This document shows positions 36,131-59,974 of a DNA stretch of 64,000 nt, in pieces. Numbering within the stretch: the first letter of the stretch is position 1; each line of letters starts with the position of its first letter. The notes beneath the pieces were generated by a model. It did not search any database and was not told the DNA's origin. It saw only the letters and a program-made list of their open reading frames with translations. The position numbers were made by a program, and so were the translations under genes. This DNA comes from an uncultured Acidimicrobiia bacterium. GTDB lineage: Bacteria; Actinomycetota; Acidimicrobiia; Spongiisociales; UBA5794. The stretch spans positions 395,146 through 459,145 of the forward strand of contig OY970200.1 of the NCBI GenBank assembly GCA_963708235.1, read 5' to 3'.

Positions 36131-37873
36131 TCAGGCGGGGTCGGCCGCATCGGTATGGCGACGCCACAGCCCGGCATAGAGACCGTCGGCGGCGAGGAGC
36201 TCCTCGTGAGTGCCCTGCGCCACCACCTGTCCCCGGTCGAAGACCACGATCAGGTCGGCCCGGGTGACGGCCTCGAGCCGGTGGGCGACGAACAGCACGG
36301 TGTGGCGGGTGGCCACCACGGCAAGGGTCGCCAACACGGCCCGCTCGGACTCGGGGTCGAGCTCGGAGGTGGCCTCGTCGAGGATCAGGATGGCCCCCGG
36401 TCGCAGCAGCGCACGGGCGATGGCGAGCCGCTGACGTTGGCCGCCGCTCATGGTGTCCCCGAGTTCCCCGACATGGGTTTCGAGGTTCCGATCGAGCCCG
36501 CGCACCCAGTCGGCGAGCGCCACCCGCTCCAGCACCGCCCACAGGCGACGCTCGGTGGCGCCCGGGTCGGCGAGCCTGAGGTTGTCGGCGATGGTCCCGT
36601 GGAACAACTCGGGTTGCTGGGGGACGACGGCGACGTGGGAGCGCAGGGCCGAGGTGGGGATGGTGCGGAGATCGGCGCCCCCGATCGTGACCTCACCTGA
36701 CTGGGGCAATCGGAAACGCAACACCACGTCGACCAGGGTCGACTTTCCCGAACCCGACGGCCCCACCAGGGCGATCAGCCCACGCTCGGGTAGATCGAGC
36801 GTGACGTGATCGAGGGCGGGCGCCGCTTCCGGGGAGTGTCGCACGGTGACGGCACGAAGGCTCACCGCTCCACCCCGCGGCGTCGGGCCACCACTTCCCG
36901 GTTCGGGGATGGGCGGTGTCCGGTCGGCCAGCTCGAAGATCCGTCGACCGGCGGCGAGCGACTGTTCCAGATCGGCGGCGATCTCCTCGACGGCGCGGGC
37001 GGGGACCGCCACCACCCAGGCGGCGACGAGCGCCATGGCCAGCCCGTCGAGGGAAAGGGCAGCGGACTCCATCTGACCCGCACCCACCACGGCGACGGCG
37101 ACGACGGCGCCTGCAGCGACCAGATCGACGAGACCGGTGCGGAATGCGGCGATACGGGCAAGCTGGCTGCGCAGTGTGGCGACGGGTTCCTCGACCCGGT
37201 CGAGCCGGGCGACGACACGGTCGGCGGCGTCGAAGGCAACGATCTCCCGGATCCCCTGCCCGGCGTCGGTGAGGGTGGCGGCAGCCGCTCCGGATGCAAC
37301 TCGTAGCTGCGGGGCGAGTTCGCTGACCCGCCGGCGCCGCAGCCAAGGCACCGCGACCACGAGTGCCAGGAACGGCACCAGGGTCCCCGCCAGTGCCCAG
37401 TTGGTGACGAGACCCAGTCCGATCACGGTGAGGGTGGGAACGATGACCGCCCCGGCGAGGGGGGCGATGGTGTGGGCGAAGAAGGGCTCGATCCGGTCGA
37501 CGTCCCCGATGACCCGGCTGACCAGGTCGCCGGATCGGTCGTCCTCGAGCCCGGTCGGCGCCAGCGGTTCCAACGCCCGGTACGTGTCCGCCCGCAGCGT
37601 CGAGAGCAGCTGGAAGGCGACGGCGTGCCCGGTGAACTGCTCCAGATAGCGGAACAGACCCTTGATCAGGGCGAGACCGGTGAGCACCAGCACCAGCGAC
37701 AACGGCTCCGGTCCGCTCCCCATCCCGATACGCACCACCGACCCGGCGGCGATCACGGGGATGGCCACCCCGAGACCCTGGTTGACGATCCGACACAGGG
37801 TCGACCCCACGACCAGTCCCCGCATCGGCCGGAGCATGGCGAGAAGCCGGCGTCGGACCTGGGCCGGGGTCAT
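36131..37873 (-). CDS. ABC exporter, fused permease-ATPase (CydC-like thiol reductant exporter subunit)
   Basis: 6-TM domain plus NBD (GPSGSGKST, LSGGQRQRLAIARAL, ILILDEATS). Confidence 0.7.
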   Translation of the reverse strand: MTPAQVRRRLLAMLRPMRGLVVGSTLCRIVNQGLGVAIPVIAAGSVVRIGMGSGPEPLSLVLVLTGLALIKGLFRYLEQFTGHAVAFQLLSTLRADTYRALEPLAPTGLEDDRSGDLVSRVIGDVDRIEPFFAHTIAPLAGAVIVPTLTVIGLGLVTNWALAGTLVPFLALVVAVPWLRRRRVSELAPQLRVASGAAAATLTDAGQGIREIVAFDAADRVVARLDRVEEPVATLRSQLARIAAFRTGLVDLVAAGAVVAVAVVGAGQMESAALSLDGLAMALVAAWVVAVPARAVEEIAADLEQSLAAGRRIFELADRTPPIPEPGSGGPTPRGGAVSLRAVTVRHSPEAAPALDHVTLDLPERGLIALVGPSGSGKSTLVDVVLRFRLPQSGEVTIGGADLRTIPTSALRSHVAVVPQQPELFHGTIADNLRLADPGATERRLWAVLERVALADWVRGLDRNLETHVGELGDTMSGGQRQRLAIARALLRPGAILILDEATSELDPESERAVLATLAVVATRHTVLFVAHRLEAVTRADLIVVFDRGQVVAQGTHEELLAADGLYAGLWRRHTDAADPA

Positions 37874-39735
37874 GTGGTCTCCTCGGAGCCGTCATCACCG
37901 GTCACCGGGTCCTCGGGGGCGAAATGGAGCTGTTCCGGCAGTTCGTCGTCACGGTCCGGATCGATCTCGGCGGCGGGTTCAGAGACCGGTGCCGTCGGGG
38001 GCTCGATCGGTGGCCAGCGAGTTGCCGTGGGATCGAGATCGTCCTGATGGTCGGGAGCTGCGGCCGGTTGGTGGAGCAGCGTCGCCGCATCAGCCCCGGC
38101 GCCGGTGTCGACGATCCGACCCTGGTCGAGCCGGAGGAACCGGTCCGAGCCGGCAATGGTGGAGAGCCGGTGGGCGATGATCAGCACGGTGCGACCAGAC
38201 GTCAGTCGGGAGACGGCGGTCTTGATCCGAGCCTCGGTCTCGAGGTCGACATTGGAGGTCGGTTCGTCGAGCACCACGATCGGAGCGTCGACCAACAGGG
38301 CTCGGGCGATGGCCAACCGCTGCGCCTCGCCGCCGCTCAACGCCACCCCGCGCTCGCCGAGCTCGGTGTCGAGACCACCTCGGGATCGCATCAGATCGGC
38401 GAGTTCGGCGTCCTCGAGAGCCGACCAGAGTTCGGCCTCGGAAGCCCCGGGGTCGGCGAGACGAAGGTTGTCGGCAACGCTACCGTCGAACAGGTACGGC
38501 CGCTGTGGGACGAGCGCCACCCGACCGTTGACGTGGACCGAGCCGCTGCGGGGACGGTGCAGACCGGCGATGATCGAGGCCACCGTGGTCTTCCCCGAGC
38601 CGGATGGTCCGACGAGGGCGATGCGCTCGCCGGGTTCGATCCGCAGCGAAACCCCACGCAGGATGTCCGGACCCTCCCCGTAGGCGAATCTCACCGAGTC
38701 GAGTGCGACCAGACCGTCGGCGGCGCCGGTCCCGAGGTCACCACGGGTCGGCCGGGCGGCATCGGGGGCGGTGGCGAACAGCTTGCGGAGCTGGGTCGCC
38801 GCGGCGCGACCGATGGCTCCGACATAGAAGAATCGACCGATCTGCGAAAGCGGCTCGATCAGCATCACGCCGAGCAACACCAGCGTCACCGCCTCGCCGA
38901 TGGTGACGGCGTTGTTGGTCAGCCGCCACGCCGCCATCCCCGATGCCGCCACGACGGTGCCGATGGTGAACAGCGAATCGACGGCGAACAGGGCGAGCTG
39001 GTTGACCCGCAGCAGCCGCATCGTTTCGACCCGGAGCCGTTCCGACTCCCCGGCGATGGCATCGCCGTATGCCCGGGCGCGGTCCATGGATTTGAGCGCC
39101 CGCAGCCCCTGGACCCCGTCGAGGAACTGGGCGGCGAGGGTGTCGGCGGTCTGCCGGTATCGGGTGGTGACCGATGCGAACCGACCTTCCAGCCCGCGCA
39201 GCAGACCTGGCATGACCGGCAGGACGAGCACCAACACCACGGCGGTGGGGATGTCGATGGTCGCCACGACCATCGCCAGTAGCAGCGGGGTCGCCATCCC
39301 GCCGATGAGCTGGGGAAGGAACCGTCCGGCGTAGTCGCCCACGGCGTTGACCCCCTCGGTCGCCTGGGTGACGATGGCGCCGGTCCTCCGGTCGGCATCG
39401 GTGGGCCCGATCCGGACCATGGCATCGAGGGTGCGTCGCCTCAGGTCCCGTTCGACGGTGGAGGCGGTGGCCGATGCGAGCAGCGGGATGGCGGGAGCGA
39501 GCAGGGTCCGAACCCCCAGGAAGACGATCAGCCAGGTGATGGCCGGCCCCGATGGTCGCTGCGTCGAGAGATCATCGACGAGCCGGCCGAGGGCGACCAC
39601 CGCTCCCGCCGACATGAGGGCGCGACCCAGCCCCACCAGCACGGTCGCTCGGATGGTGCGGCGTGCGGCCACCACGATCGAAGGCGGTTTCTTCGGTTCC
39701 GGGAGGATGTCGGGTGAGATGGGAGCGCTGGCCAT
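37870..39735 (-). CDS. ABC exporter, fused permease-ATPase (CydD-like partner) with an acidic C-terminal tail
   Basis: Start ATG 39735 (MASAPISPDIL). The track ORF continues upstream through the 26/27-bp tandem array (RGENDQKRA... translations), which is not coding. NBD motifs GPSGSGKTT, LSGGEAQRLAIARAL. Confidence 0.7.
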   Translation of the reverse strand: MASAPISPDILPEPKKPPSIVVAARRTIRATVLVGLGRALMSAGAVVALGRLVDDLSTQRPSGPAITWLIVFLGVRTLLAPAIPLLASATASTVERDLRRRTLDAMVRIGPTDADRRTGAIVTQATEGVNAVGDYAGRFLPQLIGGMATPLLLAMVVATIDIPTAVVLVLVLPVMPGLLRGLEGRFASVTTRYRQTADTLAAQFLDGVQGLRALKSMDRARAYGDAIAGESERLRVETMRLLRVNQLALFAVDSLFTIGTVVAASGMAAWRLTNNAVTIGEAVTLVLLGVMLIEPLSQIGRFFYVGAIGRAAATQLRKLFATAPDAARPTRGDLGTGAADGLVALDSVRFAYGEGPDILRGVSLRIEPGERIALVGPSGSGKTTVASIIAGLHRPRSGSVHVNGRVALVPQRPYLFDGSVADNLRLADPGASEAELWSALEDAELADLMRSRGGLDTELGERGVALSGGEAQRLAIARALLVDAPIVVLDEPTSNVDLETEARIKTAVSRLTSGRTVLIIAHRLSTIAGSDRFLRLDQGRIVDTGAGADAATLLHQPAAAPDHQDDLDPTATRWPPIEPPTAPVSEPAAEIDPDRDDELPEQLHFAPEDPVTGDDGSEETT

Positions 39736-39770
39736 GTGTCGGACCCCGAGAGTACCCCGCCTGGGAAACT

Positions 39771-40250
39771 GCCCGGTAGGCCCCCTTCTGGTCGTTCTCT
39801 CCTCGGGCCCGCTTCTGGTCGTTCTCTCCTCGGCCCCCTTCTGGTCGTTCTCTCCTCGGGCCCGCTTCTGGTCGTTCTCTCCTCGGGCCCCCTTCTGGTC
39901 GTTCTCTCCTCGGGCCCGCTTCTGGTCGTTCTCTCCTCGGGCCCGCTTCTGGTCGTTCTCTCCTCGGGCCCCTTCTGGTCGTTCTCTCCTCGGGCCCGCT
40001 TCTGGTCGTTCTCTCCTCGGGCCCGCTTCTGGTCGTTCTCTCCTCGGGCCCCTTCTGGTCGTTCTCTCCTCGGGCCCGCTTCTGGTCGTTCTCTCCTCGG
40101 GCCCGCTTCTGGTCGTTCTCTCCTCGGGCCCCTTCTGGTCGTTCTCTCCTCGGGCCCGCTTCTGGTCGTTCTCTCCTCGGGCCCGCTTCTGGTCGTTCTC
40201 TCCTCGGGCCCGCTTCTGGTCGTTCTCTCCTCGGGCCCCTTCTGGCCCTC
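39771..40250. repeat. Tandem array, ~18 copies of a 27-bp unit GGGCCCGCTTCTGGTCGTTCTCTCCTC with 26-bp variants
   Basis: Read directly. Mixed 26- and 27-bp units break any reading frame. No unique spacers. The last unit grades into the dispersed repeat X hairpin. Confidence 0.85.
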
Positions 40251-40440
40251 CCCTCCTCGGGAGGAGGGGTGGCTGCGGACGCTTGCGGACGCAGACGGGG
40301 CGGAGCGCGACCTCGATGTCCGCCTCGCCCGCAGTGTCTCCGACGGGCACGAACGGCGCCACGGACCCCCCCGAACGCGCAGGCCCGTCCGCGGCAGGTC
40401 AACCCTGAGGGACAACGAGCTCGCGCCCCTCCCCACCAAC
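40232..40440. repeat. Dispersed repeat X (copy B, 40232..40345) followed by Y (40395..40435)
   Basis: Begins with hairpin CCCCTCCTCGGGAGGAGGGG, then GGTGGCTGCGGACGCTTGCGGACGCAGACGGGGCGG as in copy A. The Y segment GAGGGACAACGAGCTCGCGCCCCTCCCCA matches 28715..28745. Confidence 0.55.
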
Positions 40441-41438: not shown

Positions 41439-41939
41439 CTAGCGGGTGACGGCGACCGAATCCTCGAACTCGACGGAGTTGACCTCATCGGTGTAGGCGA
41501 CGGTCGGCGCCGTGATCTCCACCCACTCGAAGATCGGGCGGGGGTTGTTCGCCGGGTCGTGGACGTCGGGGCTGGTCGTGGCAACCGCCGAGATCCGGGC
41601 GTTCGAGAGTTGGATGCTGAACCGGTGCCGGGTCTCACCCGAATCGGGGTTGGTGTCGAACAGCTTGATCGTGCCGTCGAGAACCTGGTTCATGACCAAT
41701 GCCCGGTACAGCAACGGTGTGGTGCGGTCGGTCGGCTTGCGGATACGAACCGGGTCGATGGTGCGTCGCCCGGCGCGCGCCGACCCCGCCTCCTTTGCGG
41801 CCTGCCGCGACCCGAAATGCAGCTCATAGCCCTCGATGTGATCTGCGGACACATCGACCCCACCCATCGTTGAATTGGAGACGTCGCCGGTCAGGGCGCT
41901 CCCGTTGATCGTGAACTCGCAATAGAACAGCTGAGCCAT
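41439..41939 (-). CDS. Hcp-family (T6SS inner-tube-like) protein, orphan
   Basis: ATG 41939 with GAGGGAGG SD. MAQLFYCEFTING..HIEGYELHFGSRQ..IDPVRIRKPTDRTTPLLYRALVMNQVLDGTIKLF aligns with Hcp1 (IDVLAWSWGMSQ..LSFTKYIDKSTPNLMMACSSGKHY..). GC ~63%, below the local background. Confidence 0.6.
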   Translation of the reverse strand: MAQLFYCEFTINGSALTGDVSNSTMGGVDVSADHIEGYELHFGSRQAAKEAGSARAGRRTIDPVRIRKPTDRTTPLLYRALVMNQVLDGTIKLFDTNPDSGETRHRFSIQLSNARISAVATTSPDVHDPANNPRPIFEWVEITAPTVAYTDEVNSVEFEDSVAVTR

Positions 41940-42138
41940 CGTCGTTCCTCCCTCGTCGAATCCCACATCGAGGATGCTCCCGGTGCGAAACCTACCCGAG
42001 GGAGGTATCCGCTGTGGATCGCCGGGAAGGCCGTCTTCCGCCGTCTGCGCACCGGGCGCGCTCCTGGTGGACCGAACTCATCATGTAGAGCGAAGAAACA
42101 TCTTGTACTCTCGGTAGACATCAATTACAATCGAACAC

Positions 42139-43413
42139 ATGTTCGCTTCAGGTTTCTTCGACAACGAAGACCGGTTGATGTCACGGTCGATGCGGTTGGC
42201 CTATGCCGATGTCGACGATGCGCGATCCGACCTGGTTCGCATCGAGGGCCAGATCGCCGAACTCCGTGCCGAACAGATCCGGATCCTGGCGTGGCTCGAC
42301 GCCCGCAAGGTGGCTCGGGTCGAAAAGGCGCGGTCGATGGAAGAATGGACGGCGGCGACCCTCGACGTGACCCCGGCGACTGCCCGTGATCTCGTGTCCG
42401 TCGCCCGCAGCGAAGACGAGGTCCCTGCGGTGCGGGACGATCTCAGCAGCGGGGCCATCACGTTCGACCGGGCCGTGGCGACCGGTGCGCTGGTGGCGGC
42501 GGGCGGAACCGAACACGACGTCGCCGAGAGTCGCGATCGCGATCTCGTCGGCGTTCGCCGCCGTACCGCCCAGTTGAAGCGGGTCACCCGTGTCGACGAG
42601 GAAGAGCTGATGCGGCAGCGTCACCTGTCGATCACTCCCACCCTGGGCAACACCGCCTGGAAGATCAGCGGAATCGCTCCCGGATATGAAGGTCACGTCA
42701 TTGCCAAGGCCCTCGAGCAGGTAGCGGAGGGATTCCCGTCCAACCGGGCGGGCGGAAGCGAGCAGAGCCGTTCACAGCGGATGCTCGATGCGCTCACCGC
42801 ACTCTCCCAGGATGCCCTCGACGGACTGAACGCGGTCGATCTCGTCGATCCCGTCGACGACGATGATGACGACGACGGTCATCCGATACCGTCGACCGAT
42901 CCGGGTACCCCGATCCGGTTGGTCGGGTCATCGGTGACGGTGTTCCTCGATGGGGACCGGGCCGCACAGAGTGCCGGGGAGCTCGGTGGGGAGATCGCCG
43001 CCGGCCCGCGCATCGGCCCTGACACCTTGGACCGCATTCTGTGCGGTGGAACGATCGGTCTGGTGGTGCTGGACCGGAACGGCAAACCGGTGGTTTCGAC
43101 CCCCAGGTCCCGCCGCATCCCACCGGCGATCCGGGATTTCGTACTTCGTCGCGACGGCGGATGTGTGATGGAAGGGTGTCGAAGTCGGTATCGGCTCGAA
43201 CCTCACCACATCCTGCGCTACGCCGATGGTGGCACGCACCATGTCGACAATCTGGTGACGCTGTGCTGGCATCACCATCACGTCGTGGTTCACCGCTCCG
43301 GTGAGCGAATCGATCCCGACAGTCCGCCGCACCGTCGAAGATTCCTCCGCCCCGGCGAACGACGCGCCCTCATCGAGGCCGAACGGATCGCCATGGCCCG
43401 GGACATCGAGTGA
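42139..43413 (+). CDS. DUF222 + HNH endonuclease protein (REP13E12-like family)
   Basis: C-terminal HNH: CRSRYRLEPHHILRYADGGTHHVDNLVTLCWHHHHVVVH. N-terminal domain as in the mycobacterial 13E12 repeat proteins. AT-rich promoter region upstream. Confidence 0.7.
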   Translation: MFASGFFDNEDRLMSRSMRLAYADVDDARSDLVRIEGQIAELRAEQIRILAWLDARKVARVEKARSMEEWTAATLDVTPATARDLVSVARSEDEVPAVRDDLSSGAITFDRAVATGALVAAGGTEHDVAESRDRDLVGVRRRTAQLKRVTRVDEEELMRQRHLSITPTLGNTAWKISGIAPGYEGHVIAKALEQVAEGFPSNRAGGSEQSRSQRMLDALTALSQDALDGLNAVDLVDPVDDDDDDDGHPIPSTDPGTPIRLVGSSVTVFLDGDRAAQSAGELGGEIAAGPRIGPDTLDRILCGGTIGLVVLDRNGKPVVSTPRSRRIPPAIRDFVLRRDGGCVMEGCRSRYRLEPHHILRYADGGTHHVDNLVTLCWHHHHVVVHRSGERIDPDSPPHRRRFLRPGERRALIEAERIAMARDIE

Positions 43414-43464: not shown

Positions 43465-44853
43465 TCAGATCAGGCTCTTGGCGGTGCTGTACTTCTTGGT
43501 CTCCATGGCCGACGAGAAGGTGTCCCACTTGACCTTGGTTTTCCGATCGAAGGTGTCGATCAACTCGGTGTACTTCCCAGCGAAGTACGCCTGCTGGACG
43601 GTGGCGTTTCCGACCCGCGTGGCGAGTTTTTCCATGACCTCGTGGTCGTTCGGATAGTTGCCGCGGATGATCCCGAGGGGTTCGGTGACCTTGCGGGTGA
43701 ACAACTCGGTCAACCCCTCGTCGATGGTGGACACCCCGGCCAGCTTGTACTGGCTGATCAGCGAGTCGCGCAGCGTGGGGTCGGCGTATTTGTGCATCCC
43801 CTCGTGGAGCACGGTGCCGGCGTTTCCCCAGTTCTTGTTGACCCAGATGTGGCGTTTGGGCAGGTTGACATCGACAAAAGCGTTGCAGACGCTGGAGTCG
43901 GTGTAGCCGAACGGTCCCCATTGCCGGAAGAAGGCGTCGTCCCAGTCCTTGCCCCCGACCACCGACACCTCCCCTTCGACCCTGCGGCCCTTGGTCACGG
44001 CATCCAACCCCAGGTCCTGCATGTAGCCCTGGATGTGCTGGTCCGCCACGGGTGCCTTCATGTGCTCGGTCCAGCCCGGGGTGGCTTCGCTCAGGTCCTT
44101 GTCCGGCTGGTTGTAGACCCGCAGGGCGGGGAGCAGCGCCAGATAGACGTCCTTCTTCAGCGTCAGGCGGGCCGTGTTCATCAACGTGGTGTCCTGGGAG
44201 ACCGTATCCCGTTCGTCCTGGGTGGCCTTCTCGATAAAGGGCCGGACATCGTCGATGGTCGTTGCGGTGGCCCCGTAGTCCTCGATGAACCGGGTGATCC
44301 TCGCCTTGAACGACATCCCCTGGCGGGTGTAGACCTTCATCATCGAGGCGACGTCGGCCCCGGCGGGATCGAGCCGGAAGGTCCCGGTGCGGATGTAGGC
44401 GTCGAGACCGTCGACCTTGTCGACCATCTTGTACCAGACGGTGTCTTTGGGGTTCTCCCGGTACTCCGACGGCTCCGGCGCCTCGTCGGTCTCCAGACGT
44501 GACGTGAACGGCTTGTTGTCGTGGATGGCGACATGTGAGTCCGGCGCAAACTCCTTGCCGGACCTCCCGTGCACCAGCGAGTCCCGGTCGGTTGGCCGGA
44601 TCCGCGGCTTGGTCTTGGTGGTGATCACCGCATCGACCGGTTTGCGCTGGACGGCGACATGCGACGAGACCGCCCGATTGCCGGCGGCGTGCAGCCCGGG
44701 AACCGATGGCGGCAGCCGATCCACGCCACCGCGCCGTACGGCCGAGCGACCGGTCCCGGTGGCGCTCTGGTCGGATCGTTGCGTCGACGTGACCCGACGC
44801 GACAGCGACATTCTCGAACGGTGCGACATCCTCGAACCTCCGGAAGGAGACAC
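43465..44853 (-). CDS. Hypothetical HExxH zinc-metallopeptidase-like protein with a disordered Ser/Arg-rich N-terminus (toxin/effector candidate)
   Basis: GGAGG SD before ATG 44853. VLHEGMHKY...IDEGLTE (HExxH + downstream Glu). Lys-rich, GC ~55% versus ~70% background. Confidence 0.5.
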   Translation of the reverse strand: MSPSGGSRMSHRSRMSLSRRVTSTQRSDQSATGTGRSAVRRGGVDRLPPSVPGLHAAGNRAVSSHVAVQRKPVDAVITTKTKPRIRPTDRDSLVHGRSGKEFAPDSHVAIHDNKPFTSRLETDEAPEPSEYRENPKDTVWYKMVDKVDGLDAYIRTGTFRLDPAGADVASMMKVYTRQGMSFKARITRFIEDYGATATTIDDVRPFIEKATQDERDTVSQDTTLMNTARLTLKKDVYLALLPALRVYNQPDKDLSEATPGWTEHMKAPVADQHIQGYMQDLGLDAVTKGRRVEGEVSVVGGKDWDDAFFRQWGPFGYTDSSVCNAFVDVNLPKRHIWVNKNWGNAGTVLHEGMHKYADPTLRDSLISQYKLAGVSTIDEGLTELFTRKVTEPLGIIRGNYPNDHEVMEKLATRVGNATVQQAYFAGKYTELIDTFDRKTKVKWDTFSSAMETKKYSTAKSLI

Positions 44854-44957: not shown

Positions 44958-45668
44958 TCAATCTGTGAAGTAGCACGTGGCTGTGATCAGGGTCCCGTCC
45001 GTACCCGAGAGCACGAGCCGGTCGAGTCCCTGAAACTCCGACGGGAGGCTGACGAGCTCCTCGAGGGTCACGCCCCCACATCCTTGGAGATCGAGCGCGG
45101 CGTCGGGAATCAGGATGAAGCCATCCTCGGTGACGACCCGCTCGGGAGAACTCTCGACGATACGCCGGGTGGGCAATGCAAGACGGTCGTAGTCGGTCTC
45201 AGCCACCTGGACTGGAGTCTCATTGTCGAGTTCCTCATCCGTCAGGCTGTCGGGCATCACGATGCGCAGAGCTTCGCTGGTGCCGGTTGCGTCGACGGTG
45301 GCGATTGCATGGCACGCAAGGCGGGAGGTGGCCGATGGGGGGTCGGGGGTGAGGAGGTCGCAGGCGTGACCGATCTCGGTGTAGGCCCGAACCGCGAACG
45401 TGGTGCCGTCGTCGAGCACGAGGGTCGCCGGCCCCACGGTGATGACCGGACCGCGCATCACGATTCGGAAGTCGGCGTCTCGTCTCACCTCGACCACGCG
45501 GCCAAACACCGTGGTCGACGCAATCGCGGCATCCGTTGTCGGAGGTGCCGTTGAGGATCCGCCAGTGGTGTCCGGAACCTCGATGGCGGTCGACCCGGTG
45601 CAGCCCATGAGAACGAGCGAGATCGCCACCATCCCCACCATCGACGATGTCAACCCGGTGTACCGCAT
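44958..45668 (-). CDS. Hypothetical lipoprotein
   Basis: MVGMVAISLVLMGCTGS lipobox. 236 aa. Confidence 0.5.
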   Translation of the reverse strand: MRYTGLTSSMVGMVAISLVLMGCTGSTAIEVPDTTGGSSTAPPTTDAAIASTTVFGRVVEVRRDADFRIVMRGPVITVGPATLVLDDGTTFAVRAYTEIGHACDLLTPDPPSATSRLACHAIATVDATGTSEALRIVMPDSLTDEELDNETPVQVAETDYDRLALPTRRIVESSPERVVTEDGFILIPDAALDLQGCGGVTLEELVSLPSEFQGLDRLVLSGTDGTLITATCYFTD

Positions 45669-51314: not shown

Positions 51315-54300
51315 TCAGCTGCAGCCCTTGCTGTCGCCGCAGTTGAGGCAGCGGTAGCAGGAGCCGTTTCGCACGGTGATGTGACCGCAGGTGTCGCACA
51401 GGGGGGCGTCGCCCATCTTGTCGGCGAGGGCCTGCTGGACGGCGGCGGTCTGGACATCGGCGTTGGTGTGCACCCGGGCGGCGGCGGCAGGTGGGGCGGT
51501 CGCCGTGGCGGTGGCGGTCCCGTTGCCGTTGCTGTGGACGTGGTGACCGTTGCTGCCGGTGCCGTTGGACGGCGCGGTGTCGTCGTCGTCGTCCGTGAAG
51601 CGGGCGGCGGCGATCTCGGCGTCGATGTCGCTCTCCATGGCGGAGTCCTCGAGACCGAGCTGCAGACCGGCTTCGACGGCCATGCCCTTCGGGGGCTCGG
51701 GGAGGCTCATCGAACGGTCGGGCGGCACCTGGGCCAGTTCGTCGCGCTCGAGGTACTCCACACCGAGGGCACGGAACACGTAGTCGACGATCGAGTTCGC
51801 CATCTTGATGTTGGGGTGGCCCTCCACCATGCCGCGGGGCTCGAACGTCTGGAAGGTGAAGGTGTCGACGAACTCCTCGAGCGGGACGCCGTACTGCAGA
51901 CCCTTGGACACCGCAATGGCGAAGCAGGACAGGATCCCACGCAGGGTGGCGCCTTCCTTGGCCAGGTCGATGAAGACCTCACCGAGCGTCCCGTCCGGGT
52001 ACTCGCCGGTGCGGAGGAACACCTTGTGACCGCCGATGCGGCCTTCCTGGGTGTACCCGCCACGGCGCGACGGGAGCAGGAAGCGGGGACGGGGCAGATC
52101 TTTGTAGGCCTCCGACGGGGACGCCCCGGGACGGAACATCCCGGCGTGGACCATGGCGTTGCCGTTCATCACCAACTCGCGCTCGGTGGTGAGCGCCTCG
52201 TCGAGACCTTCGTCCTCGTCCTCGGCGACCGCATCGTCGGACTTCGCCGACAGCGGCTGGGACGCCTTGGAACCGTCGCGGTACAGCGCCATCGCCTTGA
52301 GACCCAGTTCCCACGACATGTGATAGGACTCTTCGATGTCCTCGACCGTCACCTCGTTGGGCATGTTGATCGTCTTCGAGATCGCCCCCGAGATGAACGG
52401 CTGGGCCGCCGCCATCATCTTGATGTGGCCGGTGTGGTGGATGAACCGCACCCCGATCTTGCCGTTGCGGTTGGCCGTGTCGAACACCGGGAGATGCTCG
52501 TCACGCAGGTGCGGGGCGCCCTCGATGGTCTGCCGCCCACAGATGTGGTCGTTGGCCTCGCGGATGTCCTGGTCGGAGAACCCGACCGCCTTGAGCATGT
52601 TGAAGCCGGGATCGTTGTACTGCTCGGAGGTGAAGCCGAGACGGCGCATCGTCTCCTCGCCCAGCGTCCACTGGTTGAAGGCGAACCCGAGCTCGAACAC
52701 ACCCGGGAGCACCGACTCGATCTTGTCGATGTCGTCGGCCGAGAAACCCTTGGCGATCAGCGTGGCGGTGTTGACGTGCGGCGCCCGGTTCAGGCTCATC
52801 GTCCCGACCACGTACTCGATGATCTGCTGGACCTGGTACTGGTCGTAGCCGAGACGCTCCAGCGCCGGGCGGATCGACTGGTTGGCGATCTTGAAGTAGC
52901 CGCCACCGGCCAGCTTCTTGAACTTGACCAGCGCAAAGTCGGGCTCCACCCCGGTGGTGTCGCAGTCCATCAACAGCCCGATGGTGCCGGTCGGCGCCAG
53001 GACCGTGGTCTGGGCGTTGCGGTAACCGTGCTCCTCACCCAGCGACACCGCGGCGTCCCAGGCGGCGTGGGCCTGCTCCAACATCTCCGGTGGGCACAAC
53101 GCCTGGTCGATCCCGACCACGAAGTGCGACACCTGGTCGTACTCGTCCTGCTCGGCGCCGTAGGCGGCACGGCGATGGTTCTCCATCACCCGCAGCATCG
53201 AGTCGCGGTTGTCGTCGAACTTGGGGAAGGCGCCGAGCACCTCGGCCATCTCCGCCGAGGCGGCGTACGAGTAGCCGGTGAGGATGGCGGTGAGCGCCCC
53301 GGCGATGGTGCGACCCTGATCGGAGTCGTACGGGATACCCGCCCGCATCAGCAGCGACCCAAGGTTGGCGTAACCGAGACCAAGCGTGCGGTAGTCGAAG
53401 CTGCCCTGGGCGATCGCCGCCGAGGGGAACTGCGCCATCGTCACCGAGACCTCCAACACCACGGTCCACAGCCGGATGGCGTGGCGGTAGCCGTCGAGGT
53501 CGAACGACCCGTCCGGGTTCTCGAAGGAGACCAGGTTGAGCGACGCCAGGTTGCAGGCGGTGTTGTCGAGGAACACGTATTCCGAGCACGGGTTGGTGGC
53601 CCGGATCCGACCACCGGCGGGGGAGGTGTGCCACTCCTGGATGGTGGTGTCGAACTGGACACCGGGATCGGCGCACTGCCAGGCGGCGTCGGCGATCTGA
53701 CGCCACAGCTCGCGGGCCTTGAGGGTCTTCATCACCGAGCCGTCGGTGCGGGCGGTGAGGTTCCAGTCGGCGTCGGCGAGCACCGCCTCGACGAACTCGT
53801 TGGAGAGCCGCACCGAGTTGTTGGAGTTCTGACCGGAGACGGTGGCGTAGGCCTCGCCGTTGAAGTCGGCGGAGTAGCCGGCGGCGACCAGCGCCCGGAC
53901 CTTCTTCTCCTCCTCGGCCTTCCAGTTGATGAAGGTCTCGATGTCGGGGTGGTCGACGTCGACGATCACCATCTTGGCGGCGCGGCGGGTCGTGCCACCG
54001 GATTTGATTGCCCCGGCGGCGCGGTCGCCGACCTTGAGGAAGCTCATCAGCCCCGAGGACTTGCCGCCACCGGAGAGCATTTCGCCCTCGGCCCGGATGT
54101 GCGAGAAGTTGGCGCCGGACCCGGCACCCATCTTGAACAGGCGCGCCTCGCGGACCCACAGGTCCATGATTCCGCCTTCGTTGACCAGGTCGTCGTCGAC
54201 GCTGTTGATGAAACAGGCATGGGGAGCGGGGTGGCTGTAGGCGTCGTCGGCCTCGACCAGCTCCTCGGTCTTGGGGTCTACGTACCAGAACCCCTGGGCG

Positions 54301-54773
54301 GTGCCGGTGATGCCGTAGGCGTGGTTGAGACCGGTGTTGAACCACTGCGGAGAGTTCGGGGCGGCCATCTGGTGGACCAGCATGTAGGCCATCTCGTCCT
54401 CGAACGCCTGGGCATCGTCGGCGGTGGCGAAGTAGCCGTGCTCCTCCGCCCACCAGCGCCACGTCGACGCCAGCCGACCGATGACCTGGCGCGCCGAGCG
54501 CTCCGGCCCGGTGACCGGGGCACCGTTCTCGTCGAGGATCGGATTGCCGGCGTCGTCGACCTGGGGGACACCGGCCTTGCGGAAGTACTTGGAGACCATG
54601 ATGTCGGCGGCGACCTGCGACCACCCGGAGGGGATCTCGGCGTCCTTCATCTCGAAGACAACCGAGCCGTCGGGGTTGGTGATCCGGCTGTCCCGATGGG
54701 ACCATTCGACAGTGGAATAGGGGTCCGATCCCTCTGTCGTGAACCGGCGTTCGATCCGCAGACCCTTGGTCAT
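51315..54773 (-). CDS. nrdJ: Vitamin B12-dependent (class II) ribonucleotide reductase
   Basis: Class II RNR core motifs (NPCSEY, CNLASLNL) and C-terminal zinc-ribbon CDTCGHITVRNGSCYRCLNCGDSKGC. Start chosen at MTKGLRIE (ATG 54773) with GGGAGGGATGAGC SD. Confidence 0.85.
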   Translation of the reverse strand: MTKGLRIERRFTTEGSDPYSTVEWSHRDSRITNPDGSVVFEMKDAEIPSGWSQVAADIMVSKYFRKAGVPQVDDAGNPILDENGAPVTGPERSARQVIGRLASTWRWWAEEHGYFATADDAQAFEDEMAYMLVHQMAAPNSPQWFNTGLNHAYGITGTAQGFWYVDPKTEELVEADDAYSHPAPHACFINSVDDDLVNEGGIMDLWVREARLFKMGAGSGANFSHIRAEGEMLSGGGKSSGLMSFLKVGDRAAGAIKSGGTTRRAAKMVIVDVDHPDIETFINWKAEEEKKVRALVAAGYSADFNGEAYATVSGQNSNNSVRLSNEFVEAVLADADWNLTARTDGSVMKTLKARELWRQIADAAWQCADPGVQFDTTIQEWHTSPAGGRIRATNPCSEYVFLDNTACNLASLNLVSFENPDGSFDLDGYRHAIRLWTVVLEVSVTMAQFPSAAIAQGSFDYRTLGLGYANLGSLLMRAGIPYDSDQGRTIAGALTAILTGYSYAASAEMAEVLGAFPKFDDNRDSMLRVMENHRRAAYGAEQDEYDQVSHFVVGIDQALCPPEMLEQAHAAWDAAVSLGEEHGYRNAQTTVLAPTGTIGLLMDCDTTGVEPDFALVKFKKLAGGGYFKIANQSIRPALERLGYDQYQVQQIIEYVVGTMSLNRAPHVNTATLIAKGFSADDIDKIESVLPGVFELGFAFNQWTLGEETMRRLGFTSEQYNDPGFNMLKAVGFSDQDIREANDHICGRQTIEGAPHLRDEHLPVFDTANRNGKIGVRFIHHTGHIKMMAAAQPFISGAISKTINMPNEVTVEDIEESYHMSWELGLKAMALYRDGSKASQPLSAKSDDAVAEDEDEGLDEALTTERELVMNGNAMVHAGMFRPGASPSEAYKDLPRPRFLLPSRRGGYTQEGRIGGHKVFLRTGEYPDGTLGEVFIDLAKEGATLRGILSCFAIAVSKGLQYGVPLEEFVDTFTFQTFEPRGMVEGHPNIKMANSIVDYVFRALGVEYLERDELAQVPPDRSMSLPEPPKGMAVEAGLQLGLEDSAMESDIDAEIAAARFTDDDDDTAPSNGTGSNGHHVHSNGNGTATATATAPPAAAARVHTNADVQTAAVQQALADKMGDAPLCDTCGHITVRNGSCYRCLNCGDSKGCS

Positions 54774-54841
54774 GCTCATCCCTCCCAGGGGGTGTGGCGC
54801 CCACCACGAGCGCCGTATGTAATCCACAGGTTTATCAACAG

Positions 54842-54889
54842 CCACTACATATGGGGGTGGGGGAGTCTGGCTGACCCAATATGTAGCGC
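54842..54889. promoter_or_regulatory. Two NrdR-box-like 16-bp sites spaced 32 bp centre to centre upstream of nrdJ
   Basis: cCACTACATATGGGGg (54842..54857) and, on the opposite strand, gcGCTACATATTGGGt (54874..54889), versus consensus acacTAtATaTagtgt. The spacing of ~3 helical turns is typical of NrdR operators. Confidence 0.55.
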
Positions 54890-55102: not shown

Positions 55103-55540
55103 TCAGGTTGCGAGTTCGACGCTCTCACAGGCGATGGTGATGGTCTCGATGGCGATGTCGTTGCTGCCGGCGTCGAGCGTCGGTCCCTCGTACATCGACG
55201 GCCATGCGTTGAAGAAGTTCCACCGGGCCACCTCCTGTCGACGGCGGTCGAGCAGGATCACCGAGATGGTGCGACGTTCGTCCTCGCCGCCGGCGACCGT
55301 CTCGAACCACCGCCACAGGTTCGGGTTGCCGTCGTATCCCCGGGTCAGCTTGAGGTCCCCGATCTCGACCGAGCCCATCAGGCGGCGTGCGCTCAGTCTG
55401 CGGTCGTCGCCCTCGCGCACCCGCATCGGCTGTGCCGAGATCTTGGGGAGGTCGGCGATGATGAAATCACTCACCTCGACCCCGGATATCTCGACGATGA
55501 AGTTGAATGCGCTGAACGGGTCGCCGTCTCGTGTGGTCAC
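55103..55540 (-). CDS. Phage T4 gp19-like / eCIS Afp1-type tail tube protein, orphan
   Basis: GTG 55540 with AAGGGGG SD. FNFIVEISGVE..KLTRGYDGNPNLWRWFE..ISVILLDRRRQEVARWNFFNAWPSMYEGPTLDAGSNDIAIETITIACESVEL matches the TIGR02241/PF06841 pattern (ISVILLD..RW..NAWP.K..GP...A.GN.VAIETLEIAHEGL). Confidence 0.7.
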   Translation of the reverse strand: MTTRDGDPFSAFNFIVEISGVEVSDFIIADLPKISAQPMRVREGDDRRLSARRLMGSVEIGDLKLTRGYDGNPNLWRWFETVAGGEDERRTISVILLDRRRQEVARWNFFNAWPSMYEGPTLDAGSNDIAIETITIACESVELAT

Positions 55541-55605: not shown

Positions 55606-58173
55606 CTACGGGACGTCGAGGTCCGATGACGGGGCAAGCGGCGTGGCGTCCGGCTCGGTGATGGTGCCGACATCGACCAGGCTGGCATGGAGATCGAAGG
55701 CGGCCTTGCGTTGCAGCCTGCGGTACTCCTCGACATGAACGGCGATCGCCGCCGCCACCTCGTCGCGCTCGGCGATGATGCGGTCGGTGACGGCGTCGAG
55801 GCGGTCCATCTCGTCGGTCCGGATCACGGCGGCTTCCTGACCCACCGACCGGGCGAAGTCCCTCACCTTGGGGCGGTACTCCAACGCCACGAACGGGGTC
55901 CCGGCGGCTGCGGCCATGATCGAGGCATGGAGCCGCTCGCCGATCACCACATCGGCCGACCCCAGCAGTCCCATGGTGGCGTCGAGGTCGGCGTATCCGG
56001 CGACATAGGGCATGTCGGCGGCGCCGGCCCGTCGCATCAGGTCGATGACCCAGCGGTCATCCTGGGGGAACGCCGACAACATCACGACCTCGCGTCCGTC
56101 GGCCCTGAGCCGGGCGATGGTCGTGGCCAGCGCATCGAACACCACATCGTCGCTGCCGCCGTGCAGGTTTCCCGTGGTGTACACCGGGCAGACCACGACC
56201 CGACCGTCGACCCGTTCCGTCCCTTCCGGTGCGAACAACGACAGCGCCGGATCCCCGATCACCGGCAGATCTCGGTGATAGCCCATGGTGCGGAGGTTGA
56301 CCACCGAATCGGGTCCACGCACGGCGGCGAACAGGGCACTGTCGATGAACCCGAACCACTCCTCCATCGGTTCGGTCACCCCCCAGTACTCCGGGCTGCG
56401 CACCCCGGTCCCGAACAGCGCACGTTCCACCACGGCGCTCTCCTGACGGAGCATCCGGTTCAGGTAATAGCGCCGGCCGTTGAGCAACGTGCCGCCACCC
56501 ACCATCACCAACCTGGGGTCGACCGGCTCGCGCTGCAGATCGGCCCACGGCATCAGCCGCTGGATGGCCAGCATCACCGCCTCGTCGCCGAGGTTGTCGT
56601 GGCCGGTGAATCCGACATACGCCACCGACAGCCGCTCGGCGCCGGCGGCGGCGACCGGATCGCCGGTGGTCGGGACACCGGTGGTTGCGGCATCGGCGGT
56701 CCGGTCATCGGACGAGCCGGTCCGGCGACGGAACTCCTTCACCATCGAACGTGCCAGTTCCCGAACTCCGAGTGCGGGGAGGTCCCCGAGACCGGGGCGT
56801 CGGGTCGGTGGCGGGCTGATGGCGGCGAAGCGCGGATCATCCAGGTCGACAAGGGAGGTGATGACCAGCGCCGGGACGCTCCGCTCCACCGTGGCGGCCC
56901 ACGCAGCGTGCGGTGCGGCCAGCAGGTCGGGGCGCTTCATCAGCTCGCGGCGGCGGGCGATGGCAAACAGCGGAAGTCCGTGAGGCCCGACCGCCGAGTC
57001 GACGGCGAGGAGGTCGTCGAGCCGGAGGTAGCGGTCACCCCCGATGCGGTAGGCGTGGCGCAACACCGCCACCTCGGGCTCGGTGTCCATACGATGGACC
57101 GCCTTGGCGAGAAGACCCACCGGCGGGGTCACCCGGGCGTCGAGGAACGCCACCAACTCCCCGGTGCTGGCGGCGAGCGCCTCGGCGAAGACATCCGGGC
57201 CCTCTCCGATCACCACGGAGAGCTTCGGGTTCGATGCGGCGACCGCGGTCAGATGACCCACCGCCTCGTCCCGTCCGTGAACGACCAGCTCGATGTCGCC
57301 GAACGGGCCCGCCGCAATGGCATCCCGAGCGGCATCGGCGGTCTCGGCGGTGGCGGCGGCGACGAGCCAGGAGACCTTCGGCACCGAAGCGAGCGGCGAG
57401 GAGAGCGGACGGGTTGCCGCATGGGGAATGCGGTCGGCGAGCACCCCGGCGAGACCGGGATCGTCCCCGGTGGTACCCGCTACCGCCGGGAGCGTGGCGG
57501 TAGCACTCCAATCGGGGACCACGAACGCCCCGTCGTTCCACAGTCGCCACCCCAGCATCGCATCGGTGCCCACCGCCAACCACGGAGTGAACCCGCCGGT
57601 GGGGTCGAAGCGACGACGGCGCACCGACATGTTGCTCGTCGGCAGCGTGAGGAACCCGGTGCCCCCGACCAGCAACAGTCGCGATCGCCGCTCGTTGCGG
57701 GACCGGTCGTCACCATCGCCGTCGGGGGTGGTGCCCGGGGTGTGGCCGGTCACCACGGTGTTGTCGGCACGTCGGTGCCAGGCGGTGTGCTGTTCGATGA
57801 AACCGGGATCCACGAGCGATCCGGCATCGAGAAAGATCAGGATCTCGCCGCCGGCCACGGCTGCGCCCAGATTGCGACGGGTGGCGACATCGTCGGAATC
57901 CGGGTCGACCGGAAGTACCGGCCAAGTTCCCGCACGGTCGGGGACGGGTCCGGCGGCGCCCACCGTCACGATCTCGACATCGCCTGGGTAGTGGTCGGCT
58001 CCGAGCGAGTCGAGTGTGGCGGTTGCGGCGCCGACGGCGACCCCCGACCCGACGGTCACCACCACGGTGACGGTCGGGGGCGGAGCGGGGTCACGATCGA
58101 GGATGCCGCGGTAGTCGTTGCCGGCTGCGTCCCAGGGAGCGGGTTCCCGGGGAGGGACATGGATTGTGCTCAT
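55606..58173 (-). CDS. Multidomain cell-wall glycan enzyme: GT2 glycosyltransferase + C-terminal polysaccharide pyruvyl transferase (CsaB-like)
   Basis: GGEILIFLDAGSLVDPGF (GT-A DxD region) N-terminally. C-terminal YVGFTGHDNLGDEAVMLAIQRL...GGGTLL resembles PS_pyruv_trans. Confidence 0.6.
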   Translation of the reverse strand: MSTIHVPPREPAPWDAAGNDYRGILDRDPAPPPTVTVVVTVGSGVAVGAATATLDSLGADHYPGDVEIVTVGAAGPVPDRAGTWPVLPVDPDSDDVATRRNLGAAVAGGEILIFLDAGSLVDPGFIEQHTAWHRRADNTVVTGHTPGTTPDGDGDDRSRNERRSRLLLVGGTGFLTLPTSNMSVRRRRFDPTGGFTPWLAVGTDAMLGWRLWNDGAFVVPDWSATATLPAVAGTTGDDPGLAGVLADRIPHAATRPLSSPLASVPKVSWLVAAATAETADAARDAIAAGPFGDIELVVHGRDEAVGHLTAVAASNPKLSVVIGEGPDVFAEALAASTGELVAFLDARVTPPVGLLAKAVHRMDTEPEVAVLRHAYRIGGDRYLRLDDLLAVDSAVGPHGLPLFAIARRRELMKRPDLLAAPHAAWAATVERSVPALVITSLVDLDDPRFAAISPPPTRRPGLGDLPALGVRELARSMVKEFRRRTGSSDDRTADAATTGVPTTGDPVAAAGAERLSVAYVGFTGHDNLGDEAVMLAIQRLMPWADLQREPVDPRLVMVGGGTLLNGRRYYLNRMLRQESAVVERALFGTGVRSPEYWGVTEPMEEWFGFIDSALFAAVRGPDSVVNLRTMGYHRDLPVIGDPALSLFAPEGTERVDGRVVVCPVYTTGNLHGGSDDVVFDALATTIARLRADGREVVMLSAFPQDDRWVIDLMRRAGAADMPYVAGYADLDATMGLLGSADVVIGERLHASIMAAAAGTPFVALEYRPKVRDFARSVGQEAAVIRTDEMDRLDAVTDRIIAERDEVAAAIAVHVEEYRRLQRKAAFDLHASLVDVGTITEPDATPLAPSSDLDVP

Positions 58174-58183
58174 CGGGAAATCC

Positions 58184-59944: not shown

Positions 59945-59974
59945 GGCCCGAGATGGTAGTGGCGGAGCGCCCGG

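What the first reader, a model, noticed from the sequence alone, without database searches (positions are those of the whole stretch)
41439..41939. Orphan Hcp-family (T6SS tube) gene in a Gram-positive-type high-GC context
It gives a convincing alignment to Hcp1 over the whole length and has an excellent SD, so it is probably expressed. There are no TssB/C sheath, ClpV, TssM, VgrG or PAAR genes in 64 kb. Its GC (~63%) is below background. It is flanked by a DUF222-HNH (REP13E12-like) element and a low-GC HExxH protein, consistent with acquired cargo or an Hcp co-opted for a T6SS-independent role.
Basis: partly seen in the sequence, partly recalled or inferred. Interest (0 to 1): 0.65.

Follow-up and report, generated by a model that had tools for sequence, protein, structure and literature searches.

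The report
Orphan T6SS tube gene in Acidimicrobiia
An intact gene for Hcp, the tube protein of the type VI secretion "crossbow" of Gram-negative bacteria, sits alone in the chromosome of a Gram-positive-type actinobacterium (class Acidimicrobiia); it is real and well preserved, but what it does there is not shown.

Summary
Window 41439-41939 (- strand) encodes a 166-aa protein with a strong Shine-Dalgarno site. It passes the Pfam Hcp threshold (PF05638, 43 bits against a cut-off of 23.5). As a family profile it matches Myxococcus xanthus Hcp over its full length (E 1.6e-31). It models confidently (pLDDT 92.5) as an Hcp fold (TM about 0.8).

The host is an Acidimicrobiia actinobacterium. No T6SS core gene was found in the 64 kb.

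Close relatives (45-57% identity) are the in-cluster tube genes of complete T6SS loci in Proteobacteria and Myxococcota. The gene is therefore a captured T6SS hcp, not a look-alike. It keeps 31 of 36 residues invariant in that clade. Its dN/dS against the nearest relative is 0.30.

- The low GC comes from amino-acid composition (GC3 0.86, as in host genes), so it says nothing about acquisition.
- A second orphan tube gene of the eCIS/gp19 type lies at 55103-55540.
- The HExxH neighbour belongs to an eCIS-cargo-like family, and its adjacency to Hcp is seen nowhere else.

The function is unresolved. The most likely readings are a T6SS-independent ring protein or a passenger gene. It is a new member of a known family in an unusual host, of moderate interest.

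The parts
41439..41939 (-). hcp/tssD-family CDS, 166 aa (MAQLFYCEFTINGSALTGDV...)
   Evidence: PF05638 at 43.3 bits, above the gathering cut-off. PDB 5urw Hcp at E 1.6e-31. AF2 pLDDT 92.5 with Foldseek TM 0.75-0.81 to Hcp crystal structures. 31 of 36 residues invariant in the T6SS clade are retained. dN/dS 0.30 against L022.
41945..41954 (-). Shine-Dalgarno sequence GAGGGAGGAA, 5 nt upstream of the ATG
   Evidence: Read directly from the sequence.
41955..42138 (.). Divergent intergenic region shared with the DUF222-HNH gene. It is AT-richer (about 58% GC) and is the presumed promoter region. No consensus sigma-70 site was found.
   Evidence: Composition profile. The promoter scan found 0 sites.
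42139..43413 (+). DUF222 + HNH endonuclease gene (REP13E12-like repeat family). It separates hcp from the HExxH gene. Context only; no functional link is shown.
   Evidence: PF02720 at 30.7 bits; PF01844 at 21.0 bits, just below its 21.4-bit cut-off (E 3.6e-4). PHROG HNH endonucleases. Paralogous elements occur in related Acidimicrobiia genomes L014 and L015.
43465..44829 (-). HExxH (HEGMHKY) protein, 454 aa, of an eCIS-cargo-like family: a disordered N-terminus carrying a GNRAV...VQRK motif, plus a conserved C-terminal domain. Context only; its adjacency to hcp is not conserved.
   Evidence: 42 homologues, of which 5 carry DUF4157/PF13699. Alignment A2. In the AF2 model residues 1-123 are almost entirely below pLDDT 50 and the C-terminal domain is mostly above 90. 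No Foldseek PDB match. No co-occurrence with Hcp elsewhere.
55103..55540 (-). Second orphan tube-fold gene, 145 aa: gp19/CIS1-type inner tube protein (eCIS / phage-tail lineage). It is 13 kb from hcp, and no sheath or baseplate gene is in the window.
   Evidence: PF06841 at E 3.2e-33. TIGR02241 at 92.9 bits, above its 62.4 cut-off; CIS1_fam at E 1.4e-23. phrog_4542 tail tube.

Best explanation
The gene is a true T6SS-type hcp (tssD) that reached an Acidimicrobiia chromosome by horizontal transfer from a T6SS-bearing diderm lineage (the Myxococcota/Proteobacteria type). It persists there as a single accessory gene.

Shown:
- Family membership and fold.
- Close kinship with in-cluster T6SS tube genes.
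- An intact reading frame and a strong ribosome-binding site.
- Retention of the residues conserved in working T6SS tubes.
- No T6SS gene within 64 kb.
- An actinobacterial host.

Inferred: the protein is made in the cytoplasm (it has no signal peptide) and still assembles into the usual hexameric Hcp ring. A monoderm actinobacterium is not expected to build a trans-envelope T6SS, so the ring would work on its own. The known T6SS-independent property of Hcp rings is binding and stabilising a small partner protein in the lumen, as a chaperone or receptor. Applied here, that mechanistic step is a guess and has not been shown.
For: Family and fold.

Same subfamily as the tube gene inside complete T6SS-i clusters:
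- L009 has TssM-TssL-TssK-TssJ-Hcp-TssE-TssF-TssG, a ClpV-type AAA+ ATPase and Fha.
- L016/P0007 (57% identity) has TssJ-Hcp-TssE-TssF.
- L028 and L029 also carry T6SS genes.

Preservation:
- 31 of 36 T6SS-clade-invariant residues are kept.
- dN/dS is 0.30 at dS 0.88 against the closest relative, L022.

Host: Acidimicrobiia.

Other members with no T6SS gene on their contigs:
- Salsipaludibacter albus, an isolate of the Actinomycetota.
- L017-L021, the same housekeeping context in 5 samples.
- L025/L026, L005 and L006.

The gene is accessory. Hcp relatives other than the window's own lie on contigs of at most 38 kb. At least ten Mb-scale contigs from related Acidimicrobiia appear in the same database.

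The Hcp fold is used outside the T6SS. About 46-58 of the 149 nearest cluster representatives carry Sec signal peptides placed just before the Hcp domain.
Against: - No partner, substrate or conserved neighbour was found; every orphan locus has a different context.
- Pairwise dN/dS cannot tell whether selection acted on this branch after the transfer.
- Possible donors are equally GC-rich, so the age of the transfer cannot be judged.
- Ring formation was not modelled; only monomer prediction was available.
- The rest of the genome was not visible, so a T6SS or eCIS elsewhere is not excluded.
- The taxonomy of most close relatives, on short metagenomic contigs, is unknown.
Confidence: 0.45

Rival explanations
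1. Functionless passenger. The hcp gene arrived recently by horizontal transfer, perhaps with the neighbouring variable genes. It is intact only because too little time has passed for decay, and it does nothing useful in a host without a T6SS.
For: - No cognate genes in 64 kb.
- It lies in a small variable stretch next to a DUF222-HNH repeat element.
- No member of this Hcp subfamily appears on the Mb-scale contigs of related Acidimicrobiia.
- The sequence looks exactly like a working T6SS Hcp (31/36 invariant residues), as expected if constraints have not had time to change.
- The subfamily is rare and patchy: 35 proteins among 5.8 billion, and 4 of 185,579 species genomes.
Against: - The nearest known relative is only 65% identical and the nearest in-cluster T6SS relative only 57%, so no recent donor is visible.
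- The start codon and SD are well formed.
- GC3 fits the host.
- Other orphan copies are stably present in an actinobacterial isolate and across several samples.
Confidence: 0.3
2. The Hcp works with a contractile injection system of the eCIS/CIS type encoded elsewhere in this genome, for example as a lumen-type chaperone or adaptor for cargo such as the neighbouring HExxH protein.
For: - The window holds an orphan gp19/CIS1-type tube gene.
- Next to hcp lies a protein with eCIS-cargo architecture: a disordered N-terminal region, family members with DUF4157, and a variable or conserved C-terminal domain.
- DUF4157 is a marker strongly enriched in eCIS loci, and disordered N-termini load cargo into the tube (PMC8213781; bioRxiv 10.64898/2026.05.27.728243).
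- In the window the ~110-aa partner gene that follows the three HExxH homologues examined (L011-L013) is missing. The downstream genes are the HNH gene and then hcp.
Against: - No known eCIS uses a PF05638-type tube.
- Hcp and HExxH homologues never co-occur in the other loci examined.
- No sheath, baseplate, spike or AAA+ gene is in the window.
- The 50-kDa HExxH protein is too large for a folded fit in an Hcp lumen (general knowledge of Hcp-carried effectors).
Confidence: 0.12
3. Ordinary orphan hcp: the genome carries a complete T6SS elsewhere, and this copy supplies tube subunits or carries an effector.
For: Orphan hcp genes are common in T6SS-positive Proteobacteria. The Thiotrichales relative sits next to an EndoU toxin and a small putative immunity gene. 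The sequence is indistinguishable in quality from in-cluster Hcps.
Against: - The host is Acidimicrobiia, a Gram-positive-type lineage. Canonical T6SS-i needs the outer-membrane lipoprotein TssJ and a diderm envelope (established knowledge).
- A literature search found no T6SS described in this class. A RefSeq-wide survey reports only sporadic partial T6SS gene sets on plasmids of Actinobacteria.
- No small effector and immunity pair lies next to the gene in the window.
Confidence: 0.08

Closest known systems
T6SS-i tube protein Hcp/TssD, e.g. Myxococcus xanthus Hcp (PDB 5URW) and the in-cluster Hcp of loci L009, L010 and L016
   Same: Same Pfam family and same length (about 165 aa). Full-length alignment (E 1.6e-31 to 5urw). 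Same fold (TM 0.75-0.81). 45-57% identity to in-cluster tube genes. 31 of 36 clade-invariant residues kept.
   Different: No TssJ upstream or TssE/TssF downstream, and no other T6SS gene in 64 kb. The host is a monoderm-type actinobacterium.
Orphan hcp-effector-immunity islands of Proteobacteria (here: Thiotrichales MAG locus L001, with an EndoU nuclease and a 108-aa gene)
   Same: A stand-alone hcp away from the main cluster, from the same subfamily (47% identity).
   Different: In the window no small effector and immunity pair is adjacent. The nearest toxin-like gene is a 454-aa eCIS-cargo-like protein, separated from hcp by an HNH gene on the other strand. The host probably has no T6SS to fire.
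eCIS/CIS inner tube proteins (PF06841 Phage_T4_gp19; CIS1/Afp1 family)
   Same: A tube protein of the wider contractile-injection kind. One such gene is also orphan in this window, at 55103-55540.
   Different: A different sequence family. The Hcp does not match PF06841, and eCIS loci are not known to use PF05638 tubes.
Signal-peptide-bearing Hcp-like proteins (not described in the papers searched)
   Same: They are among the nearest sequence neighbours of the window protein in the 1.84-billion representative library. They show the Hcp fold used without T6SS export.
   Different: The window protein has no signal peptide. The reading frame upstream of its ATG offers only 9 further residues before an alternative GTG.

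Membership tests
Hcp/TssD protein family (PF05638) | Sequence match above the curated Pfam gathering threshold | tested here: met
   43.3 bits against a 23.5 cut-off, E 5.3e-11.
Hcp/TssD protein family (PF05638) | NCBIfam TIGR03344 (VI_effect_Hcp1) score above its cut-off | tested here: not met
   53.0 bits against a 58.9 cut-off, E 3.5e-14. This is a near miss. The family profile still hits five solved Hcp structures at E 1.6e-31 to 2.7e-14.
Hcp/TssD protein family (PF05638) | Hcp beta-barrel protomer fold | tested here: met
   AF2 pLDDT 92.5 and pTM 0.86. The Foldseek PDB top 27 are all Hcp structures, with TM 0.75-0.81 for the best.
Hcp/TssD protein family (PF05638) | Assembly into hexameric rings that stack into a tube | not testable with these tools
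   Only monomer prediction was available. Indirect support: 31 of 36 residues invariant in in-cluster relatives are kept.
Functional T6SS component | Co-location with T6SS core genes (tssA-M, vgrG, clpV) | tested here: not met
   Pfam scans of the window's ORFs and tblastn with the L009/L010 T6SS proteins found none in 64 kb.
Functional T6SS component | T6SS core genes elsewhere in the same genome | not testable with these tools
   Only the 64-kb window of the 3.74-Mb contig is accessible.
Functional T6SS component | Host with a diderm envelope able to hold the TssJLM membrane complex | tested here: inconclusive
   The host is assigned to the Acidimicrobiia from NrdJ similarity. That this class is monoderm rests on general knowledge, not on a test here.
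Orphan hcp-effector-immunity island | A small effector gene and a cognate immunity gene directly adjacent to hcp | tested here: not met
   Downstream lies a convergent PhzF gene. Upstream lies a divergent DUF222-HNH gene. The ~110-aa partner of the HExxH family is absent from the window.
eCIS / CIS locus | Sheath, baseplate (gp25, Baseplate_J), spike, tail terminator and AAA+ genes together with a gp19-type tube | tested here: not met
   Only an isolated PF06841 tube gene at 55103-55540 and one eCIS-cargo-like protein are present. No other eCIS core family was found in the window.

The most novel reading that the evidence does not exclude
Hcp rings have a life outside the T6SS. In monoderm Actinomycetota a captured Hcp would serve as a stand-alone cytoplasmic ring, for example holding or chaperoning eCIS-type cargo such as the adjacent HExxH protein with its disordered N-terminus. 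In many other bacteria a large sister group of Hcp-like proteins would be exported by the Sec pathway through signal peptides. Together these would define T6SS-independent Hcp functions.
Probability: 0.15. Interest if true: 0.75.

Novelty: new member of a known kind. Interest (0 to 1): 0.45.

Why it matters
Hcp is treated as a diagnostic T6SS component of Gram-negative bacteria. An intact, well-preserved copy in an Acidimicrobiia chromosome raises two possibilities: annotation pipelines and T6SS surveys count genes that cannot be doing T6SS work, or the Hcp ring has uses independent of the T6SS.

The second possibility gains some weight from the side observation that many of the nearest Hcp relatives carry Sec signal peptides. 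If a stand-alone function exists, this small soluble protein would be an easy experimental entry point, through expression, oligomer state and bound partners.

If it is only a passenger gene, the finding is a caution for genome-based calls of secretion systems.

Tried and rejected
- Conserved gene neighbourhood. Contexts of 12 relatives were fetched, together with 4 genome loci and 80 metagenome loci. No neighbour is shared among the orphan copies. The HExxH and Hcp families never co-occur elsewhere.
- Synteny with related Acidimicrobiia. L014 and L015 (NrdJ 81-83% identical) share no gene order with the window, so island borders could not be defined.
- Flanking repeats, tRNA genes, promoters and terminators. 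There are no tRNA genes and no convincing direct or inverted repeats around 40.4-47.3 kb. Promoter and terminator matches are no more than chance gives.
- Defence-system or phage origin. PADLOC gave no hits. PHROGs gave only a marginal hit for Hcp. There are no relatives in IMG/VR and only distant tssD hits in plasmids.
- Low GC as a mark of foreign DNA. Rejected, because GC3 is host-like and the low GC1 is a family trait.
- Taxonomic names for close relatives through cluster members. None were obtained.
- Literature on Hcp in Actinobacteria or Acidimicrobiia, or on Hcp with signal peptides. Nothing relevant was found.

Full report
**The gene.** The minus-strand ORF at 41439-41939 starts with ATG. 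A GAGGGAGGAA Shine-Dalgarno sequence lies five bases upstream. The ORF encodes 166 residues.

It matches Pfam PF05638 (T6SS_HCP) at 43.3 bits, well above the gathering score of 23.5. It matches NCBIfam TIGR03344 at E 3.5e-14, but its 53.0 bits fall just short of that model's 58.9-bit cut-off.

A profile built from 33 relatives (alignment A1) hits five solved Hcp structures. The best is the Myxococcus xanthus tube protein in PDB 5urw, at E 1.6e-31 over the whole length. AlphaFold2 with this alignment gives a confident model (pLDDT 92.5, pTM 0.86). Its best Foldseek matches in the PDB are all Hcp protomers, with TM 0.75-0.81.

**The host and the rest of the window.** The class II ribonucleotide reductase at 51315-54845 is 76-83% identical to many proteins whose only source names are Acidimicrobiia or Actinomycetota MAGs. 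The exact Hcp sequence lies on a 3.74-Mb contig. The gene is thus embedded in an actinobacterial chromosome and is not on a stray fragment.

Pfam scans of essentially all long ORFs with high third-position GC show housekeeping genes:
- inositol catabolism genes,
- ABC transporters,
- PhzF,
- SNF2/SWIM,
- NrdJ,
- a glycosyltransferase operon.

No T6SS family appears. tblastn with T6SS proteins taken from related loci (TssM, L, K, J, E, F, G, a ClpV-type ATPase, Fha) finds nothing in the window.

One thing was missed. 55103-55540 (-) encodes a 145-aa gp19/CIS1-type inner tube protein (PF06841 at E 3e-33; TIGR02241 above its cut-off). It is also isolated, and it lies at the end of the glycosyltransferase operon.

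**Base composition.** The ORF is 64.3% GC against 68.5% for the window. Its third-position GC is 0.86, within the host range of 0.76-0.92. The low first-position GC (about 0.59) is shared by every relative examined, including those inside T6SS clusters. The GC dip reflects amino-acid composition and is not evidence of foreign origin.

**Where the gene comes from.** The subfamily is rare. It has 35 proteins among 5.8 billion, four loci among 185,579 species genomes, and six representatives at E<=1e-30 among 1.84 billion.

In several relatives it is the tube gene of a complete T6SS-i cluster:
- L009, a proteobacterial MAG, carries TssM, TssL, TssK and TssJ upstream. TssE, TssF, TssG, a ClpV-type ATPase and Fha lie downstream.
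- L016 (P0007, 57% identical) shows TssJ-Hcp-TssE-TssF.
- L028 and L029 carry T6SS genes. L010 (Sandaracinaceae) has a similar run of ORF sizes, but its flanking ORFs were not identified.

The window gene is therefore a homologue of working tube genes, not a remote look-alike. It keeps 31 of the 36 positions that are invariant in that clade. Against its nearest relative (L022, 65% identity) dN/dS is 0.30 at dS 0.88.

In a neighbour-joining tree it groups with P0002, P0003 and P0030. This group sits beside a clade that contains the copy of Salsipaludibacter albus, an isolate of the Actinomycetota (class Nitriliruptoria). It is apart from the clade holding the in-cluster genes. The tree is a rough distance tree, and most leaves have no taxonomy.

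**Orphan copies elsewhere.** Copies with no T6SS gene on the contig occur in several places:
- S. albus (6.3-kb contig);
- L017-L021, the same housekeeping context in five samples;
- L025/L026;
- L005 and L006;
- a Thiotrichales MAG, where the gene faces an EndoU nuclease and a small gene, a classic effector-island layout.

Their neighbourhoods have nothing in common. None of the other Hcp relatives lies on a contig above 38 kb. The same database holds at least ten Mb-scale contigs of related Acidimicrobiia. In this lineage the gene is therefore accessory and not a conserved trait.

**The neighbours.** Upstream and divergent lies a DUF222-HNH gene (42139-43413) of the REP13E12-like kind. Related genomes carry paralogous copies.

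Beyond it, on the hcp strand, lies a 454-aa HExxH protein (43465-44829). Its family (42 members; alignment A2) has:
- an N-terminal LxLQRxxGNxAV...QR motif (GNRAV...VQRK in the window protein),
- a variable middle part that in five members is a DUF4157 domain,
- a conserved C-terminal domain with an invariant HEGxHKY.

The model shows a disordered N-terminal region of about 125 residues and a confident helical C-terminal domain. That domain has no Foldseek match in the PDB.

DUF4157 is a marker strongly enriched in eCIS loci and linked to their toxins (PMC8213781). Disordered N-termini act as loading signals for eCIS cargo (bioRxiv 10.64898/2026.05.27.728243).

In three homologous loci the gene is followed by a conserved ~110-aa partner. 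That partner is absent from the window. No other locus combines this family with an Hcp. The adjacency here is therefore not evidence of a functional pair.

**What it most likely is and does.** The well-supported part is this: a T6SS-type hcp, acquired horizontally, sits as a single intact and probably translated accessory gene in a Gram-positive-type actinobacterium, with no T6SS partner in 64 kb.

I rate four readings:
- **A T6SS-independent ring protein (0.45).** It would keep the known ability of Hcp hexamers to hold small proteins in the lumen. This is the best of several weak options.
- **A functionless passenger (0.30).** This cannot be excluded. No donor closer than 57-65% identity is known, and pairwise dN/dS does not isolate this branch.
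- **A link to an eCIS elsewhere in the genome (0.12).** The orphan gp19-type tube gene and the cargo-like neighbour hint at this. No known eCIS uses an Hcp-type tube.
- **A full T6SS elsewhere (0.08).** This is unlikely for this class but was not testable.

**A side observation.** About 46 (by a crude score) to 58 (by eye) of the 149 nearest cluster representatives have an N-terminal Sec-type signal peptide. Its AxA cleavage site lies directly before the ALNAYA... start of the Hcp domain. The same is seen in P0033/L006, P0035, L030, L034 and L038. I found no paper describing such proteins. The window protein has no signal peptide, so this bears on it only by showing that the Hcp fold is used outside the T6SS.

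**Verdict.** It is a new member of a known family in an unusual host. The function is unresolved, and the interest is moderate.

Noticed in passing
window 55103-55540 (-): A second orphan tube-fold gene: a 145-aa gp19/CIS1-type inner tube protein (PF06841 E 3e-33; TIGR02241 at 92.9 bits, above its cut-off). It starts 65 bp downstream of a glycosyl/pyruvyl-transferase operon (55606-63922) and lies next to nrdJ. No sheath or baseplate gene is in the window. Its only relative in IMG/VR is 35% identical (L102).
   Followed up: partly
proteins P0226-P0368; loci L006, L030, L034, L038: Roughly 30-40% of the 149 nearest Hcp cluster representatives carry an N-terminal Sec-type signal peptide, cleaved (AxA) right before the conserved ALNAYA start of the Hcp domain. 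This suggests a sizeable group of Sec-exported Hcp-like proteins. No paper describing them was found. Their gene contexts were not analysed.
   Followed up: partly
window 43465-44829 (-); loci L011-L013: An HExxH (HEGMHKY) protein family with eCIS-cargo-like architecture: a disordered N-terminus with an LxLQRxxGNxAV motif, an optional DUF4157 domain, and a confident all-helical C-terminal domain with no Foldseek PDB match. In the three homologous loci examined a conserved ~110-aa partner gene follows it; that gene is missing in the window, where a DUF222-HNH gene sits instead.
   Followed up: partly
window 39779-40261: A near-perfect 27-nt tandem repeat, 18 copies at 96% identity, with extreme AT skew. 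It lies within the 5' part of the long ORF of an ABC transporter (37870-40362, -). It is open in several frames, so the true start of the transporter gene is probably downstream of the repeat.
   Followed up: partly
window 963-4985 and 4989-9563 (+): Two adjacent giant ORFs (1340 and 1524 aa) with high GC3 and no Pfam hit. The only match is a weak ZorA-like stretch in the first (23.5 bits, far below the cut-off). A beta-lactamase-fold protein with an SLH domain follows at 9627-11048.
   Followed up: no
window 44958-45668 (-): A 236-aa predicted lipoprotein (lipobox LMGC) with no family match, 104 bp upstream of the HExxH gene on the same strand. It is possibly co-transcribed with it.
   Followed up: no
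loci L014 14697-15839 and L015 14487-15602: In two related Acidimicrobiia genomes a DUF222-HNH gene lies about 1 kb downstream of nrdJ. This suggests a preferred location for these repeat elements.
   Followed up: no
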